A stretch of DNA of 64,000 nt from the NCBI GenBank assembly GCA_963762135.1, contig CAVXJP010000008.1, positions 944,824-1,008,823 on the forward strand, given 5' to 3'. The DNA is from Terriglobia bacterium. GTDB taxonomy: Bacteria; Acidobacteriota; Terriglobia; Bryobacterales; Bryobacteraceae. Shown here piece after piece: positions 42,084 to 54,634 of the stretch (positions are counted from its first letter, which is position 1; each line of letters opens with the position of its first letter). Below the pieces are notes generated by a model that searched no databases, was not told where the DNA came from, and saw nothing but the letters and a program-made list of their open reading frames with translations. The translations under genes and the position numbers were made by a program.

Positions 42084-42131
42084 GGTGGTGCGCCCGGCAC
42101 GACTCGAACGTGCGACCTTCTGGTTCGTAGC
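42084..42131. repeat. attL: duplicated 3' part of tRNA-Arg (48-bp direct repeat)
   Basis: Base-by-base identical to 54556-54603. Contains the 46 3'-terminal nt of the tRNA starting at the anticodon loop. Confidence 0.9.
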
Positions 42132-42182
42132 AATCAAAGCACGAAGAATCAGTAAGATGGCGTCAAGGGCTACCGAGTATCA

Positions 42183-43110
42183 CTAAGTGTCCCCGCGCTT
42201 GCGTTTTAGGCCCCTTTCGTTCTTCCGCTGTGCGCTCCGTGATATTCCGTCTGTGTCGGTAGTAGGCACGTTATTAGGCACAGTCGCGCGCTTCCTTCGG
42301 CGCCACTCGCGCTGCCTGGTTGTTCTACTGCAGCGATCATGCGCCTCCTTGTTGGCGCTGTAGTCTGTGACATCCATCCATTTGCCGCAGAGCCTGCACT
42401 GCCTCGGCCGGCGTTCCCCGGTTACGACTTGTGAAAATTGGAGCCAAATTGCAGCAAGCAGATTGCTGGGAACCAGCTTCGCGCGCGATGAACCGTCCCG
42501 GCCGGCCACCAATTGCAGCGATACATGAGGGGTGACGATCACCTTCTCGGGTTTGTCTCTCCTTAGTTGCCGCACAGTGCCCGGCCAAAGATGCCCGTTT
42601 ATCGATTTTCGGAGCAATCCTTGGGCGTGCTGGAGCGGTTTTGTGAGAGTGATCTCATGGGCTTTGATTTCCTCCTGCGAGGAAACGCCTCAGGATCCGC
42701 GTGTTGCCTTCCTGGACCCGCTCCCATAATTTGAAATACCGCTGAAACTCCTGGACTTCAAAAAACCAATCGGAGAAAGGCTCCCCAATGCCTCCCGCGA
42801 AGTGGACCAGCCCAACGCCAAGTGCACCGAACCGATTTGCGATCTTCAAAAGTCCGGCCGGAGTCAGTTCGGCATTGACGAAATCAAGATATGCGTAATC
42901 GCTTTCTGACCTCGCCCTGTTGATCTCTATCTCAAGTTCTCGAATTGCTCCAGTACCCTTCGATGGGCCGTCAGGGATCGTCACAAGGAAGCGTTCCTCG
43001 GGCTGATTGCCGGGAGCATCCCGAATCCCTTTCCTCCACATATAGCCATCATTCGATATCCACTGGCGTGAAGGTTCGTATGCGTCTGTCCGGTCCTTGC
43101 GTTCGGTCAT
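42183..43110 (-). CDS. Hypothetical protein with C-terminal Cys-rich/basic tail (one frameshift near 42620-42660)
   Basis: ORFs 42655-43110 and 42183-42617 are contiguous on the same strand. CRLCGKW..HDRC motif. Confidence 0.4.
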
Positions 43111-43135
43111 GGGTCCTCAATTTTCCCTTTCCGAT

Positions 43136-43179
43136 GTAGACGCAAATGTAGACGAGAAATTGTATAGAAATGCGTCTAC
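43136..43179. promoter_or_regulatory. Operator-like repeats in a divergent promoter region
   Basis: GTAGACGCAAAT GTAGACGAGAAAT TGTATAGAAAT GCGTCTAC. 9-bp inverted repeat GTAGACGCA/TGCGTCTAC plus direct GTAGACG copies. Confidence 0.4.
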
Positions 43180-43310
43180 CTGGATGATACGCTGTGTTTG
43201 TCGTTGCAGTCAATAGTTCGCCATGGGCGATCTGATTGCATAGGGGCGTACCGGCGTCGAGCAGTGCCCGGGATCATCCGGGAGAAGTCTACCCAGAAGG
43301 AGTAACAGCC

Positions 43311-43493
43311 ATGAATGAGAAGCGCTATACCGTTCGCGAACTCTCCGAACGGACCAATATGAGCAAAGGGTTTTGGCGGAAACAGATCAACCTTGGCAAC
43401 ATCGAGGCCGAATACTTCGGGCGGTCGGTTCGGGTCACGGAAGCCGCGCTCAATGACTATTTGGAGCGTCAACAGCAGAAGCGGGCCGCCTAA
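43311..43493 (+). CDS. Excisionase-family / MerR-like helix-turn-helix protein
   Basis: YTVRELSERTNMSKGFWRKQI..IEAEYFGRSVRVTEAALNDYL. GAAGGAG RBS 8 nt upstream. Confidence 0.65.
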   Translation: MNEKRYTVRELSERTNMSKGFWRKQINLGNIEAEYFGRSVRVTEAALNDYLERQQQKRAA

Positions 43494-43753
43494 TGAAGGT
43501 TCTCGCACATGATGGGACCTATCTTGGCGACTATTCCGAGGAAACAGTAAGTCGAATCATCGAGCAGGGCCTCGGTCACTGCCACAAACGGTATGTTCGG
43601 CTCGTGCCCGAGGCGCGCCAAGAGCGCGGGAACTCGCTTCGGCGAGGCTACGTAGGCTCCAATGCGCTACGGCTGGATGGCCAGAACATACATTGCGCAG
43701 AGACGAGAGAGAACCCCCGCGGTTGCTGGACATTTGGAAGGGAGCGACGATGA
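43493..43753 (+). CDS. Hypothetical protein
   Basis: 86-aa ORF. Its ATG overlaps the preceding stop (TAATG). Confidence 0.35.
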   Translation: MKVLAHDGTYLGDYSEETVSRIIEQGLGHCHKRYVRLVPEARQERGNSLRRGYVGSNALRLDGQNIHCAETRENPRGCWTFGRERR

Positions 43754-43920
43754 TTAAGCCAATTCAGCGCGAACGCTCGGAATACCACTTACGCTGCTGG
43801 AGGTGCGCGGCTGAGCTCGCCCTTGATGCCGCAGACGTCGACGGGGCCGCCGGCCGGGCGCAGTGTCCGCATTGCGGCGCGAGGCTGGATGTTAACTGGC
43901 GAGAGGCGGCGCGCGGGTGA
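43750..43920 (+). CDS. Small zinc-ribbon protein
   Basis: CWRC..x21..CPHCG pattern. Overlapping start and stop codons with neighbours. Confidence 0.4.
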   Translation: MIKPIQRERSEYHLRCWRCAAELALDAADVDGAAGRAQCPHCGARLDVNWREAARG

Positions 43921-52547: not shown

Positions 52548-52589
52548 GTCAAGATGCGTAACCCCCTCAGGCGTACATAGGCTACAGGG

Positions 52590-52785
52590 GTGGCAAAGAA
52601 GAAAAGGGAATTTACCTCGATGACGGAAATGCTTGAGTTCTTTCGGGAGACCGGGCGGCAGGGCGGCAAGATCGGCGGCAAAGCACGCGCGAAGAAGCTC
52701 ACCAAGAAACAGCGCAGCGAATCCGCCAAGAAAAGCGGCTCAGGCTCGATCGGAAGAAGGCCAAAAAGAAGGCCAAGGCCAATAA
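52590..52785 (+). CDS. Small basic protein (GGKARAKKLT..QRSE.AKKAAQAR type), 1-nt A-run indel
   Basis: Removing one A from the run at 52731-52734 restores ..SAKKAAQARSEEGQKEGQGQ*. Confidence 0.4.
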
Positions 52786-52787
52786 GA

Positions 52788-53322
52788 ATGGGAAAGGTGA
52801 TGAGTAGGGAGACGCAGGTATACAAACCGTCCCCAGAAGAACGGCTGGCCGGAATCGAACACGTGGCTTATGAATACTCGAACTTCGTTCGAGCTCACGT
52901 GTTCCTAGGAACCGGCGCACCCCAGGGGTGGACCTATGGCCGTGATCACGGGAAACGCCTTCCTGCTCAGTTGCCGGCAGTTGGCGGAATTTTTCGGGGC
53001 GCCGACGGAGAAGCCAGATATTCTGGCTGTCCACTATACGAATCGCGGCCCAGTGGAGTTTGCAGAATTCGGCAAATGGCGGAAAGCCCTAAATGCTCAG
53101 CTCGCGCATCTGAGCTACGAGCGGGTCAATAATCCACAGGCGGATCTCACTGCCACGGTCACAAGGCGGAACTATCATGAGCTTCGCAAAGCATTCCATA
53201 AGTTTTTGTGCCGTGTTAAGTGCGGGGATCACGTGAAAGAGTTCCAGCGATGCCTAGCCGCGCGGCAGAAGGTCGTCCAGGTGAGGCTTTTGGATGAATC
53301 TATACGGAAGTTGAGGGCCTAA
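52788..53322 (+). CDS. Hypothetical protein (one frameshift near 52930)
   Basis: MGKVMSRETQVYKPSPEERLAGIEHVAYEY.. continues as ..ITGNAFLLSCRQLAEFFG.. in ORF 52936. Confidence 0.35.
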
Positions 53323-53324
53323 GA

Positions 53325-54541
53325 ATGGGAGTCTATAAGCGCAAAGTATTCGGCCTACGGGTGGTACAAGTTCGTTTGGCGGGGCCAGACGATCCGGGAG
53401 AGCACCAAACAGACCAATAAGCGTGTGGCTGAAACGATGGAATCCGCGCGGCGAACGCAACTCGCCAAGGGCGAAGTGGGTATCAGAGACTTGAAGCCGG
53501 CACCCACGCTACGCCAACTTTACGCAGAAGGACTTCCTGCCCTACTGCCGGCTTGCCTACAAGCCGAAACCGAATCACCTGACGCACTACAAGAACGGCA
53601 CACGCGCGCTCCTAACGTTCGAGAAGATCGCCTCAAAGAAGCTCGATGAAATCACCGCGGAAGACATCACTGCTTATGTCCAGTTTCGGCAGGGGGCGGT
53701 GTTCAAGGTATCGACTGTGACCCGTGAGCTCGAATGCTGCAGCGGCGCATGTTCGCCGCTGGTCGATGGAATGGGGCAAGACGATCAAGGCACTCCCCAA
53801 GGTCCGAATGCTATCGGGCGAAGCGCATCGCGAACGCGTCCTGAGCCATGCCGAGGAGCGGAAGTATCTCGAAGCGACTGCCGAACTCGGACAGTCCATT
53901 GAGGCGGCATATGGGGCGGCCCTGACAGGGATACGTGCGACACAACGTGCTGGTGCAACCCCCCATCAAGCCAAGCAGATCCCTACCGGCTGCGCGACGC
54001 GGCCACGATTCACATCGATTGCGGCCTGCGGCCGGCGGAGTGTTTCAGCCTGCGATGGGAGAACGTCCTGGAGGATTCGCTAGAAATCCTCGAAGGCAAG
54101 ACCAAGAACGCGCGGCGGCGGATTCCGTTTTCTGAGCGTGTCGGAGCAATCCTCACGATGCGCAGGGCCGCGAGGATGGAATCCGATTGGGTCTTCCCGG
54201 CGCCTACCAAGAGCGGCCACATCGAGCCGTCATCGCTGCGCAAGCCTCACGTGAACGCCTGCAAGGCCGCAAAGGTTGAGCAATTCGACCTCTACACATT
54301 CAGGCATACGTGCCTGACGCGCTGGGCAGCCTCGGGGATGGATCCCTGGACGGTTCGTTACCTGGCCGGCCATTCCGATATGAACATCACGCGGCGATAC
54401 GTTCACCCGCAGGCCGATGCGATCCGCGCGGCGATGAAGCGGGCACGAGCTACGCCCGAGGTTCAGGGTGGGCACGTTCCCGGGCACAGTGGAAAATCAG
54501 ACCAAATGCAGGATAGTGCAGAGGGACCCGCAGTAAATTGA
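53325..54541 (+). CDS. int: Tyrosine integrase next to tRNA-Arg (about 5 frameshifts)
   Basis: Pieces in three frames: MGVYKRK.., KFVWRGQTIRESTKQTNKRVAE.., YKNGTRALLTFEKI.., EWGKTIKALPKVRMLSGEAHRERVL.., LRPAECFSLRWENV.., FRHTCLTRWA.., LAGHSDMNITRRYVH. Confidence 0.8.
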
Positions 54542-54555
54542 ATCTACTTGGGTTA

Positions 54556-54603
54556 GGTGGTGCGCCCGGCACGACTCGAACGTGCGACCTTCTGGTTCGT
54601 AGC
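54556..54603. repeat. attR: 48-bp direct repeat within tRNA-Arg
   Basis: Identical to 42084-42131. Confidence 0.9.
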
Positions 54604-54634
54604 CAGACGCTCTATCCAACTGAGCTACGGGCGC
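54558..54634 (-). tRNA. tRNA-Arg (anticodon ACG)
   Basis: 77-nt cloverleaf GCGCCCGTAGCTCAGTTGGATAGAGCGTCTGGCTACGAACCAGAAGGTCGCACGTTCGAGTCGTGCCGGGCGCACCA, folded by hand. Confidence 0.92.

What the first reader, a model, noticed from the sequence alone, without database searches (positions are those of the whole stretch)
42084..54634. 12.5 kb tRNA-Arg-integrated element with replication and terminase genes but no virion structural genes (phage-satellite-like)
Seen in sequence:
- A perfect 48-bp direct repeat (42084-42131 = 54556-54603) duplicates the 3' part of tRNA-Arg(ACG) from the anticodon loop onward.
- An integrase lies directly beside the intact tRNA.
- Between the repeats are an Xis-like HTH, a CHC2 primase-type zinc-finger protein, a RepA/AAA_25 ATPase, iterons, a complete large terminase (Walker A/B and nuclease motifs) and two small-terminase-like HTH proteins.
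- No ORF is large enough or similar enough to be a portal, major capsid, protease or tail protein.

Established knowledge: satellites such as PICIs and P4-like elements combine int, xis, pri-rep and packaging-redirection genes and rely on helper-phage capsids.

Inference: this is a satellite-like island in an acidobacterial host. It encodes its own TerL and TerS but no capsid module, which I do not recognise as one of the described satellite families.
Basis: partly seen in the sequence, partly recalled or inferred. Interest (0 to 1): 0.72.

Follow-up and report, generated by a model that had tools for sequence, protein, structure and literature searches.

The report
Capsid-less island with own terminase
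A 12.5-kb mobile element inserted in a tRNA-Arg gene of an acidobacterium carries integration, replication and phage DNA-packaging genes (small and large terminase) but no genes for a virus shell, so it most likely spreads inside the capsids of a helper phage, with a gene set that matches none of the described satellite families I checked.

Summary
The repeats, the tRNA and the gene content are real. A perfect 48-bp direct repeat (42084-42131 = 54556-54603) duplicates tRNA-Arg(ACG) from its anticodon loop to its 3' end. Between the repeats lie an AlpA/Xis-type HTH, a CHC2 primase-like protein, an AAA_25 RepA, an iteron-like cluster, TerL, two TerS paralogues, a MazF toxin, a second tyrosine recombinase and a tRNA-adjacent integrase. 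No portal, capsid, scaffold, tail or lysis gene was found by Pfam, PHROGs or profile comparison.

As sequenced, at least 10 single-base frameshifts break the integrase (5), RepA, TerL and three other genes. The essential host genes fusA (at least 8) and rpsG (1), 2-5 kb away, are broken in the same way. The frameshifts are therefore probably local assembly errors, not decay.

One relative (L002) is a closed 13,722-bp circle. It has the same architecture, intact genes, an attP-like tRNA-Ser fragment beside its integrase, and no capsid genes. Nearly all other TerL relatives are ordinary phages in which TerL is followed by portal and capsid genes.

Best reading (about 0.5): a PICI-like satellite that brings its own complete terminase. 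This would be a new variant of a known kind, but it rests on two complete examples and no experiment.

The parts
42084..42131 (.). attL: displaced copy of the 3' part of tRNA-Arg (48-nt direct repeat)
   Evidence: Perfect 48/48 match to 54556-54603.
42183..43110 (-). Homologue of the 302-aa protein of L002, read here as two ORFs (42183-42617 and 42655-43110) in different frames. It is transcribed divergently from the HTH_17 operon and is a candidate regulator. The C-terminus has a CxxC...C zinc-ribbon-like motif.
   Evidence: tblastn with L002_302: q55-81 matches at 44% and q235-295 at 31%, in different frames. No Pfam, PHROG or PADLOC hit. The AF2 model of the N-terminal half is unusable (pLDDT 52).
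43236..43493 (+). AlpA/excisionase-type HTH (HTH_17), first gene of the rightward operon
   Evidence: PF12728, 28.3 bits against a cut-off of 27, E 2.2e-6. L002 has an HTH_17 gene in the same position.
43493..43920 (+). Two small ORFs: 43493-43753 (unknown) and 43693-43920 (zinc-ribbon-like)
   Evidence: Weak zinc-ribbon Pfam hits, E 3e-5 to 1e-3, below cut-offs.
43917..44510 (+). CHC2 (DnaG-type) zinc-finger protein, primase-like
   Evidence: PF01807, E 5.7e-6, above cut-off. phrog_11992 and several DNA primase PHROGs.
44574..45495 (+). RepA-like AAA_25 ATPase, split by one +1 frameshift near 44915 (CCCAAAGCC)
   Evidence: AAA_25 profile positions 19-82 fall in ORF 44574-44939 and positions 145-193 in ORF 44860-45495.
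45467..45624 (.). Iteron-like cluster (candidate origin): about 5 copies of (T/A)CAGCGGAT(A), in both orientations
   Evidence: 4 of the 10 window matches at up to 1 mismatch lie within 140 bp; 0 of 100 shuffles reach 10 matches.
45646..45939 (+). 97-aa ORF that ends immediately before the TerL ATG; unknown function, not TerS-like
   Evidence: No Pfam or PHROG hit. hhalign to the TerS profile gives 0.5%.
45940..47393 (+). Large terminase (Terminase_6N/Terminase_3 type), split by one frameshift near 46250. The repaired 484-aa protein is collinear with intact relatives.
   Evidence: The repaired protein finds 2410 homologues, the best at 66% identity. Walker A, Walker B/DE and the nuclease motifs are all conserved.
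47429..47812 (+). TerS-A (Sf6-type small terminase), uninterrupted, located downstream of TerL
   Evidence: phrog_4102, E 7e-28. Weak Sf6_terminase Pfam hit. hhalign 99.6%.
47790..48507 (+). Homologue of the L002 225-aa coiled-coil protein, split by a frameshift near 48145
   Evidence: tblastn: q84-98 in one frame and q102-213 (31%) in another. L002_225 gives a weak PUMA_CC coiled-coil hit only and shows no similarity to phage scaffold proteins.
48556..48699 (+). Homologue of the L002 61-aa protein
   Evidence: 43% identity over 37 aa. The start codon is unclear.
48700..49027 (+). Homologue of the L002 102-aa protein. This family is the gene that sits directly after the MCP gene in the related phages. 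Here it is split by a frameshift near 48878.
   Evidence: N-terminus in the frame of 48700; C-terminus at 48887-49006, 47.5% identical to L002_102. The family is found after the MCP gene in most of about 50 matching loci (alignment A1).
49117..49440 (+). TerS-B, second small-terminase paralogue (inside ORF 48700-49647)
   Evidence: phrog_4102, E 1.5e-6. hhalign 96.7%.
49754..49836 (-). tRNA-like element (acceptor stem GGAAGGTG/CACCTTCC, T-loop GGTTCGACTCC); below threshold
   Evidence: Rfam tRNA-Sec model, 27.3 bits against a gathering score of 47, E 0.07. Sequence. Not called by ARAGORN.
50465..51184 (+). Candidate antitoxin (50465-50758) and PemK/MazF toxin (50813-51184) in a low-GC patch
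   Evidence: PF02452, E 3.4e-25. GC 0.52. The antitoxin role is inferred from position only.
51410..52420 (-). Second tyrosine recombinase (XerD-like, about 320 aa), uninterrupted
   Evidence: Phage_integrase, E 3e-16. 64% identical to the 320-aa recombinase of L002. The family sits beside integrases at the ends of larger elements L167-L169, which carry 800-1125-aa ORFs.
52590..53322 (+). Small ORFs. The N-terminus of 52590-53132 is homologous to the L002 79-aa protein. 52936-53322 is unknown.
   Evidence: 49% identity over 43 aa. No family hits. The AF2 model is unusable (pLDDT 38).
53325..54541 (+). Tyrosine integrase (about 400 aa) next to the tRNA, readable only through 5 frame changes (about 53350, 53512, 53735, 53755 and 53958)
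   Evidence: The reconstructed protein matches intact 394-401-aa integrases at 54-65% identity over 92-100% of its length.
54556..54634 (-). attR repeat (54556-54603) within the intact tRNA-Arg(ACG) gene (54558-54634)
   Evidence: Rfam tRNA, 70 bits.

Best explanation
The 12.5-kb segment is an integrative mobile element with a PICI-like layout. A tyrosine integrase inserted it into the 3' half of tRNA-Arg(ACG) and regenerated the tRNA.

Layout:
- A leftward gene (the 302-aa family) faces a rightward operon.
- The operon starts with an AlpA/Xis-type HTH, followed by a primase-like CHC2 protein, an AAA_25 RepA and an iteron-bearing origin.
- Next comes a phage-derived packaging module: TerL, two TerS paralogues, and three small genes shared with the related phages.
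- Cargo (a MazF toxin-antitoxin pair) and a second recombinase follow.

Proposed mechanism (inferred, not shown):
1. On infection or induction of a helper phage from the same acidobacterial phage group, the element excises and replicates from its own origin.
2. Its own TerS-TerL holoenzyme recognises the element's pac site.
3. The holoenzyme docks on the helper's portal and fills helper procapsids by the headful mechanism, probably with 3-4 genome copies per head.
4. Capsid, tail and lysis functions all come from the helper.

The frameshifts in the window copy are most likely consensus errors of the assembly rather than decay.
For: Integration:
- Perfect 48-bp att repeats duplicate the tRNA 3' half, and the integrase abuts the tRNA.

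Architecture and modules:
-.

No capsid module:
- No portal, MCP, scaffold, tail or lysis gene appears in Pfam or PHROGs.
- tblastn with the clade's portal and MCP finds nothing.
- Profile-profile comparison of the unknown ORFs of at least about 85 aa gives at most 3.8% probability, while divergent portal controls give 99-100%.
- No uninterrupted unknown coding stretch exceeds about 0.9 kb.

A mobile, intact relative (L002):
- It has a 30-nt terminal overlap, which makes a 13,722-bp circle.
- The NCBI copy is 13,777 bp, that is 13,722 + 55. My reading is that the extra 55 bp is a circular contig from a k=55 assembly.
- It has 20 uninterrupted genes in the same order: Int and the 302-aa gene leftward; HTH_17, replication genes, TerS, TerL, 225, 61 and 102 rightward; then the 320-aa recombinase.
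- About 85 bp downstream of its integrase it carries a 46-nt fragment that is 91% identical to the 3' part of a Bryobacteraceae tRNA-Ser. This is an attP.

Divergence with conserved content:
- The two elements share only 31-64% amino-acid identity and use different integrases, att sites and replication modules. They still share the TerS/TerL/225/61/102 module without a portal.

Candidate helpers exist:
- TerL is 50-66% identical to TerL of Bryobacterales-type phages, which carry portal and MCP directly downstream.

Frameshifts are probably artefacts:
- fusA has at least 8 and rpsG has 1, with every segment collinear with E. coli EF-G or S7.
- Repaired TerL keeps every invariant motif.
- Repaired Int is collinear with intact homologues.
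Against: - There is no direct evidence of excision, helper dependence or packaging for either element, and no helper has been identified.
- Only two complete members were found. IMG/VR scans with element-specific proteins found nothing.
- Every gene of the packaging and lysogeny modules has its closest relatives in ordinary prophages. Reduction of a prophage could therefore give the same picture.
- Gene order differs from L002 and from the phages: TerS lies downstream of TerL and is duplicated. This could reflect rearrangement of a remnant.
- If the at least 10 frameshifts are real, this copy is dead.
- Unknown ORFs could not be tested by structure. Single-sequence AF2 models gave pLDDT 52 and 38.
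Confidence: 0.5

Rival explanations
1. The island is a defective prophage remnant. A temperate phage of the local Bryobacterales type lost its portal-to-tail and lysis genes by deletion. What remains is the lysogeny, replication and terminase genes, with no transfer function.
For: - TerL, TerS, the 102-aa gene, the 320-aa recombinase and the integrase all have their closest relatives in full prophages.
- Two partial contigs show TerS-TerL followed directly by host or toxin-antitoxin genes, as a truncated prophage would (L186, L179).
- TerS is duplicated and lies out of order relative to TerL.
Against: - L002 has the same portal-less content but is a closed circle with attP and 20 uninterrupted genes.
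- The island and L002 have diverged to 31-64% identity and differ in integrase, att site and replication module, yet keep the same module boundary after TerL. Two independent random deletions are unlikely to produce this.
- The replication module (CHC2 plus AAA_25 RepA plus iterons) and the size (12.5-13.7 kb) are satellite- or plasmid-like. I saw them in none of the phage contexts I looked at.
- No structural gene fragments are left.
Confidence: 0.25
2. The island belongs to the terminase-bearing capsid-less family, but this copy is a fossil. The frameshifts in int, repA, terL and other genes are real inactivating mutations.
For: - At least 10 frameshifts fall in 12.5 kb, and 5 of them in the 1.2-kb integrase (binomial P = 0.0015). 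None was seen in the ORFs of the 42 kb upstream.
- Homopolymer density is the same in the island and its flanks.
- Reconstructed Int keeps only 86% of the positions that are at least 90% conserved.
- A related integrase at the same tRNA-Arg in another MAG (L087) is also broken by about 4 frame changes.
Against: - Essential host genes 2-5 kb away carry the same kind of lesion at the same or higher density: fusA has at least 8 and rpsG has 1, with all segments collinear and 48-78% identical to the E. coli proteins.
- All disruptions are 1-nt indels. No nonsense codon was found in the aligned segments.
- The conservation test is confounded by divergence. Intact integrases of equal divergence score 0.83-0.87.
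- TerL keeps all invariant motifs.
- The 48-bp repeats are still identical.
Confidence: 0.25
3. The island is an integrative plasmid-like or defence island. Its terminase genes are not used for its own transfer. They might, for example, interfere with packaging by invading phages, or be passenger genes acquired by recombination.
For: - It has its own RepA, primase-like protein and iterons.
- It carries a toxin-antitoxin pair, and L002 carries a PIN-domain protein.
- Satellite-encoded packaging proteins are known to interfere with helper packaging (literature).
Against: - PADLOC models find no defence system.
- A full, motif-intact TerL plus a cognate-type TerS, conserved in two diverged elements, is more simply explained by DNA packaging.
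- No conjugation or mobilisation genes were seen.
Confidence: 0.08
4. The island is an assembly artefact, a chimeric join of phage-like and chromosomal sequence.
For: The assembly has local error clusters at the island and at fusA/rpsG. This suggests uneven read support.
Against: - The element is bounded by an exact duplication of the tRNA 3' half, with the integrase at the tRNA side. This is the signature of site-specific integration.
- A related integrase occupies the same tRNA-Arg site, with a repeat 5.4 kb away, in an independent MAG.
Confidence: 0.03

Closest known systems
PICIs (phage-inducible chromosomal islands, e.g. SaPIs and Gram-negative PICIs)
   Same: - Size of 12-14 kb and site-specific integration with att repeats.
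- An integrase, an AlpA/Xis-type regulator at the head of a rightward operon facing a leftward gene, and a primase/replicase module with an iteron-type origin.
- Its own TerS.
- No capsid, tail or lysis genes.
- Accessory cargo such as a toxin-antitoxin pair (definition from PMC10085698).
   Different: - It carries a complete TerL, which PICIs leave to the helper.
- It has two TerS paralogues.
- No recognisable capsid-size remodelling gene (cpm/ppi/rpp type) was found.
- The host is in Acidobacteriota, whereas more than 99.9% of detected PICIs are in Proteobacteria or Firmicutes.
- Induction by a helper is untested.
cfPICIs (capsid-forming PICIs)
   Same: A satellite-type left arm combined with a phage-derived TerS and TerL.
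   Different: cfPICIs are defined by also carrying MCP, portal, protease, head-tail adaptor and connector. None of these is present here or in L002.
Streptomyces satellites MulchRoom and MiniFlayer
   Same: They encode both small and large terminase (PMC10690885).
   Different: Those also encode portal, MCP, scaffold and adaptor, and they lack key replication genes. The island is the reverse: it has replication genes and no capsid genes.
PICMIs and marine VEIMEs (minimal satellites)
   Same: No capsid-remodelling genes. Packaging as multimers in full-size helper heads is the likely mode (PICMI abstract; VEIMEs).
   Different: In the VEIME text I searched, only small-terminase homologues are reported, and the authors expect TerL to come from the helper. 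I saw the PICMI paper only as an abstract and did not check its gene content. The island carries both terminase subunits. On my own recollection it is also about twice the size of a PICMI.
P4-like satellites
   Same: tRNA-associated integration by a tyrosine integrase, and a primase-type CHC2 zinc-finger protein.
   Different: No Sid, Psu, Delta or Epsilon homologue was detected. P4 is packaged from cos sites by the helper's terminase (established knowledge, as summarised in PMC10690885).
Cryptic or defective prophage remnants
   Same: All phage-like genes have their closest relatives in prophages of the same host clade.
   Different: A closed-circle relative with attP and uninterrupted genes shares the same portal-less module boundary despite deep divergence.

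Membership tests
PICI | Integrase and site-specific integration with flanking att repeats | tested here: met
   48-bp perfect repeats, with an integrase abutting tRNA-Arg. 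As sequenced, the integrase ORF is interrupted by 5 single-base frame changes.
PICI | Regulation module (AlpA, MerR or Stl homologue) | tested here: met
   HTH_17 (AlpA/excisionase type) at 43236-43493, above the Pfam cut-off. It was not scored with SatelliteFinder's own profiles.
PICI | Primase-replicase module | tested here: met
   CHC2 DnaG-type zinc finger, an AAA_25 RepA-like ATPase and an adjacent iteron-like cluster. SatelliteFinder profiles were not available.
PICI | Small terminase subunit | tested here: met
   Two TerS-like genes: phrog_4102 at E 7e-28 and 1.5e-6, hhalign 99.6% and 96.7%.
PICI | No portal, capsid, head-tail, tail or holin genes | tested here: met
   None found by Pfam, PHROGs, tblastn or hhalign. 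Structure-level exclusion failed because the models had low pLDDT.
PICI | Packaging module limited to TerS or Rpp, with TerL supplied by the helper | tested here: not met
   A full-length TerL with all motifs intact after repair of one indel.
PICI | Induction, excision and packaging triggered by a helper phage | not testable with these tools
   This needs culture, induction or read data. The only indirect hint is that the related L002 exists as a circle with attP.
cfPICI | TerS and TerL | tested here: met
cfPICI | Major capsid protein, portal and prohead protease | tested here: not met
   No hit in any search. Clade portal, MCP and scaffold profiles give at most 3.8% probability. No unknown coding stretch is large enough for a portal.
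cfPICI | Head-tail adaptor and connector | tested here: inconclusive
   No Pfam or PHROG adaptor or connector hit. The retained 102-aa gene is, however, the gene that follows the MCP gene in the related phages, and its function is unknown.
P4-like satellite | Sid, Psu, Delta, Epsilon and alpha primase-helicase core | tested here: not met
   Only a CHC2 zinc finger matches primases. No other P4 core family appears in Pfam or PHROGs.
Defective prophage remnant | Residual fragments of structural or lysis genes, or an arbitrary deletion boundary | tested here: not met
   No fragments were found. The boundary after TerL-225-61-102 is shared with the diverged, circular L002.
Defective prophage remnant | Inactivated mobility and replication genes | tested here: inconclusive
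   The island has at least 10 frameshifts, but fusA and rpsG nearby have at least 9 of the same kind. The assembly cannot be trusted on this point.

The most novel reading that the evidence does not exclude
The island and the circular element L002 are the first members of a satellite lineage in Acidobacteriota. It has PICI-like integration, regulation and replication modules and brings a complete terminase (TerS + TerL) but no capsid, portal or tail gene. It would parasitise helper procapsids through its own packaging motor. This would be an intermediate gene set between classical PICIs (TerS only) and capsid-forming PICIs.
Probability: 0.4. Interest if true: 0.75.

Novelty: new variant of a known kind. 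Interest (0 to 1): 0.55.

Why it matters
In the satellite families I checked, elements either borrow the helper's large terminase (PICI and P4, from the text read; PLE, VEIME and PICMI, from partial reading or recollection) or bring a whole head-building kit (cfPICI, Streptomyces satellites).

An element that brings only the packaging motor would be a third strategy. It would compete with the helper at the portal vertex using a foreign TerL. This raises testable questions about TerL-portal compatibility and about how satellites arise from phages by stepwise gene loss or gain.

It would also extend satellites to Acidobacteriota, a dominant and poorly cultured soil phylum, where none was detected by SatelliteFinder's survey.

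A practical lesson: the frameshifts that make this island look dead are matched by frameshifts in fusA and rpsG. Pseudogene calls in this kind of assembly need a local control.

Tried and rejected
They seemed specific to the island, and a conservation-retention test appeared to show relaxed selection in Int. I rejected this for two reasons. The str operon showed at least 9 equivalent frameshifts in fusA and rpsG. The retention score also tracks divergence (r = 0.80), and equally divergent intact integrases score the same.

2. I looked for a common sequence motif at the 18 frameshift sites. None was obvious. The contexts are short runs or non-homopolymer sequence.

3. I looked for the empty site in related genomes. 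The genome scan with the HpcH aldolase found only 55-69% relatives (best-segment identity) and no conserved synteny with the TonB-type receptor. One MAG (L087) has the same tRNA-Arg occupied by another island.

4. I looked for more family members.
- IMG/VR scans with rec336, L002_225, CHC2, RepA, L002_513 and L002_302 gave nothing useful.
- TerL-based scans returned almost only true phages.
- The second recombinase is not family-specific. It also sits beside integrases in larger elements that carry 800-1125-aa ORFs.

5. I tested whether the 225-aa protein is an alternative scaffold. It shows no similarity.

6. I tried to assign a function to the 102-aa family. It has no Pfam, PHROG or PDB match.

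7. I ran structure prediction on two unknown ORFs. The pLDDT values were 52 and 38, so I did not run fold searches.

8. PADLOC found no defence system. The promoter and terminator scans were not above chance.

9. The look-up of the source record for P0001 failed, so the source assembly and its sequencing technology remain unknown.

Full report
**1. The observation**

ARAGORN finds tRNA-Arg(acg) at 54558-54634 on the minus strand (Rfam tRNA, 70 bits). A perfect 48-nt direct repeat lies at 42084-42131 and 54556-54603, and it is the only long repeat in the region. The right copy covers tRNA positions 32-77 plus two bases. The left copy is therefore a displaced 3' half of the tRNA, which is the classic footprint of integration into a tRNA gene.

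The flanks are ordinary host genes. On the left is a full-length TonB-dependent-receptor-like outer-membrane protein (38850-42065). On the right is an HpcH/HpaI aldolase (54783-55754), followed by rpsL. The window has 61.6% GC. The island is a mosaic, with 52-56% GC patches at 42-43.5, 49.5-51.4 and 52.5-53.5 kb.

**2. Gene content, left to right**

| Coordinates | Strand | Feature |
|---|---|---|
| 42183-43110 | - | Two ORFs that together match one 302-aa protein of a related element |
| 43236-43493 | + | HTH_17 AlpA/excisionase-type protein |
| 43493-43920 | + | Two small ORFs, one zinc-ribbon-like |
| 43917-44510 | + | CHC2 DnaG-type zinc-finger protein |
| 44574-45495 | + | AAA_25 RepA-like ATPase |
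| 45467-45624 | . | About five copies of TCAGCGGATA within about 160 bp, right after the repA stop |
| 45646-45939 | + | 97-aa ORF, unknown |
| 45940-47393 | + | TerL |
| 47429-47812 | + | TerS (phrog_4102, E 7e-28) |
| 47790-49027 | + | Homologues of three small proteins of the related element (225, 61 and 102 aa) |
| about 49117-49440 | + | Second TerS paralogue |
| 49754-49836 | - | Weak tRNA-like element |
| 50813-51184 | + | PemK/MazF toxin, with an upstream candidate antitoxin |
| 51410-52420 | - | Uninterrupted XerD-like tyrosine recombinase |
| 52590-53322 | + | Small ORFs |
| 53325-54541 | + | About 400-aa tyrosine integrase, ending 15 bp before the repeat |

It missed the second recombinase and the toxin, and it did not see the frameshifts.

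**3. No capsid module**

- Pfam and PHROGs find no head, tail or lysis family other than the terminase subunits.
- tblastn with portal and MCP proteins of the closest phages finds nothing in the window.
- hhalign of the unknown ORFs of at least about 85 aa (island and L002) against 60-sequence profiles of the clade's portal, MCP and scaffold gives at most 3.8% probability. A divergent portal that tblastn had missed scores 99.2%, and a typical one scores 100%.
- The largest unexplained coding stretch is about 0.9 kb, too short for a portal.
- Structure-level exclusion failed. Single-sequence AlphaFold models of two unknown ORFs had pLDDT 52 and 38.

**4. The frameshifts**

As sequenced, several genes are interrupted by single-base frame changes:

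| Gene | Frame changes |
|---|---|
| Integrase | 5 |
| RepA | 1 |
| TerL | 1 |
| 225-aa homologue | 1 |
| 102-aa homologue | 1 |
| 302-aa homologue | at least 1 |

The source's own annotation also calls a truncated 365-aa TerL (P0001).

The 42 kb upstream holds long intact ORFs, and homopolymer density is equal in the island and its flanks. I first read this as decay specific to the island. A conservation test also seemed to show relaxed selection in Int.

That reading did not survive two checks.
- The str operon 2-5 kb to the right is damaged in the same way. rpsG has one frame change and fusA has at least eight. Every segment is collinear with the E. coli proteins, at 52-78% identity for EF-G and 48-60% for S7. 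Meanwhile rpsL, tuf and the L4-L23-L2-S19 genes are intact. An essential, highly conserved gene cannot be a pseudogene with eight frameshifts, so the assembly has local clusters of consensus indel errors.
- The conservation score correlates with divergence (r = 0.80). Intact integrases as divergent as the island's score 0.83-0.87, against 0.86 for the island.

Other points fit the artefact reading. All disruptions are 1-nt indels with no nonsense codon in the aligned segments. Repaired TerL keeps the Walker A, Walker B and nuclease motifs. Repaired Int aligns end to end with intact 394-401-aa integrases.

I therefore treat the frameshifts as probable artefacts (about 0.7). The functional state of this copy is undetermined.

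**5. Relatives**

The repaired TerL has thousands of homologues. The best are 50-66% identical, and many come from Bryobacteraceae or Bryobacterales.

In the contexts I could read, TerL is followed, after zero to three small genes, by a roughly 500-aa portal, a scaffold and a roughly 300-aa MCP. This holds for the following loci:
- L001, L003, L004, L005, L170 and the P0005 contig.
- About 76 of 80 IMG/VR loci.
- Almost all JGI metagenome loci with enough downstream sequence.

These are plausible helpers.

The exception is L002 (TerL 58% identical to the island's):
- The contig has a 30-nt terminal overlap, which gives a 13,722-bp circle.
- The NCBI copy is 13,777 bp. That is exactly 55 bp longer, as expected for a circular contig from a k=55 assembly. 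This last point is my inference.
- Its 20 genes are uninterrupted. Int (394 aa) and a 302-aa gene run leftward. HTH_17, a 513-aa protein with a C-terminal HTH, a replication initiator (phrog_9474), two small ORFs, TerS, TerL and then 225-, 61-, 102- and 139-aa genes run rightward. A 320-aa recombinase and a PIN-domain protein complete the set.
- It shares with the island the 302-aa gene (31-44%), TerS (35-38%), TerL (58%), the 225-aa (31%), 61-aa (43%), 102-aa (47%) and 79-aa (49%) genes and the recombinase (64%), in the same relative order.
- It uses a different integrase and a different replication module.
- About 85 bp downstream of its integrase, L002 carries a 46-nt stretch that is 91% identical to the variable arm, T arm, acceptor and CCA of a Bryobacteraceae tRNA-Ser, with no 5' half. 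That is an attP.

L002 is therefore the circular form of a tRNA-Ser-integrating element with the same capsid-less, terminase-bearing content.

Two partial contigs (L186, L179) also show TerS-TerL followed directly by host or TacAT toxin-antitoxin genes. They cannot be told apart from truncated prophages.

**6. Mechanism**

Shown:
- Integration at the tRNA.
- The modular layout.
- A complete terminase gene pair.
- The absence of morphogenesis genes.
- A circular, attP-bearing relative.

Inferred:
- The element excises and replicates from its iteron origin using RepA and the primase-like protein.
- Its TerS recognises its own pac site, and its TerL docks on the portal of a related helper phage and fills helper heads. 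The Sf6-type TerS and the Terminase_6N/3-type TerL are usually associated with headful packaging (established knowledge). Cultured relatives are only about 30% identical.
- Phage contigs that carry related TerL are 38-50 kb long. A 12.5-13.7-kb element would fill such a head as about 3-4 copies, as described for PICMIs.
- The leftward 302-aa gene facing the HTH_17 operon, with an inverted repeat in the 125-bp spacer, is positioned like a master repressor. This is conjecture.

**7. Comparison with known families**

The SatelliteFinder paper defines PICI core components as int, a regulator, pri-rep, an optional capsid-morphogenesis gene and terS. It states that PICIs typically carry no other phage structural or lysis genes. 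It lists terL as a cfPICI-specific component, alongside MCP, portal, adaptor and connector. It found more than 99.9% of PICIs in Proteobacteria or Firmicutes.

The Streptomyces satellites carry TerS and TerL but also portal and MCP. Marine VEIMEs carry only TerS, and the authors expect TerL to come from the helper. Within the library I could search I found no described family with TerS and TerL but without portal and MCP. This is an absence of evidence in a partial library.

The element works like a PICI and meets four PICI core features. It fails the 'helper supplies TerL' feature, and it fails the cfPICI capsid features.

**8. Verdict**

The most likely reading is a PICI-like satellite with its own complete terminase (about 0.5).

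The main rival is a reduced prophage remnant (about 0.25). Separately, this particular copy may be a fossil if the frameshifts are real (about 0.25).

Novelty: a new variant of a known kind. Interest is moderate to good, limited by the small number of members and by the quality of the assembly.

Noticed in passing
window 56685-59343: The essential host genes rpsG (1 frame change) and fusA (at least 8) are broken by single-base indels, although every segment is collinear with E. coli S7 or EF-G. rpsL, tuf and the L4-L23-L2-S19 genes next to them are intact. The assembly therefore has local clusters of consensus errors. No shared sequence motif was found at the sites.
   Followed up: yes
window 49754-49836 (-): A tRNA-like element lies in a low-GC intergenic stretch of the island. 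It has an acceptor stem GGAAGGTG/CACCTTCC, a canonical T-loop GGTTCGACTCC and a long variable region. It scores below the Rfam threshold (tRNA-Sec model, 27 bits, E 0.07), ARAGORN does not call it, and its folding energy is no better than that of shuffled sequence.
   Followed up: partly
L087 3731-9183 (Terriglobia MAG MFD02416.bin.1.115): The same tRNA-Arg(ACG), upstream of the HpcH aldolase orthologue, is occupied by a different island of about 5.4 kb. It is bounded by a copy of the same repeat (2 mismatches). Its integrase is related to the window's integrase (60-69% in translated fragments) and is also readable only through about 4 frame changes, while its cargo ORFs of 240-279 aa are open.
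   Followed up: partly
L167, L168, L169, L002; window 51410-52420: A very abundant family of roughly 320-aa XerD-like recombinases (about 8000 database hits below 1e-20) repeatedly sits one to five small ORFs (L167-L169), or a few genes (L002), away from a roughly 390-410-aa integrase at the end of integrated elements, both phage-sized and small. Its role next to a conventional integrase is unexplained.
   Followed up: partly
alignment A1; L001 4711-5115, L003 16641-16982, L004 16575-16988, about 50 IMG/VR loci; window 48700-49027: A conserved family of about 100-135 aa with no Pfam, PHROG or PDB match is encoded immediately after the major capsid gene in most loci of this phage group. The capsid-less elements retain it.
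   Followed up: partly
IMG/VR loci L014, L017, L022, L026, L035-L037, L039, L041, L043, L046, L048, L051-L053, L064, L074 and others: Many IMG/VR contigs that carry this TerL family are strikingly uniform in length (about 15.7-16.8 kb) and start within 300 bp of TerL, followed by portal and MCP. This could be provirus-boundary trimming or a fixed-size (GTA-like?) structural cluster.
   Followed up: no
L186 365-2156 and L179 1116-3141: In both contigs TerS-TerL pairs are followed directly by non-phage genes. L186 has an aldo-keto reductase, an AraC regulator and an OmpR-PD40 protein. L179 has a TacT/TacA toxin-antitoxin pair and a PilZ protein. There is no portal within 2.4-5.8 kb. These are either further capsid-less elements or truncated prophages.
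   Followed up: partly
window 45940-49440: The gene order of the packaging module is unusual. TerS lies downstream of TerL and is present twice (47429-47812 and about 49117-49440). In L002 and in the phages I examined, a single TerS overlaps the TerL start. A 97-aa ORF that is not TerS-like occupies that upstream position here.
   Followed up: partly
window 50465-51184: A PemK/MazF toxin with a small upstream ORF sits in the island's lowest-GC patch (0.52). PADLOC models do not match either protein.
   Followed up: partly
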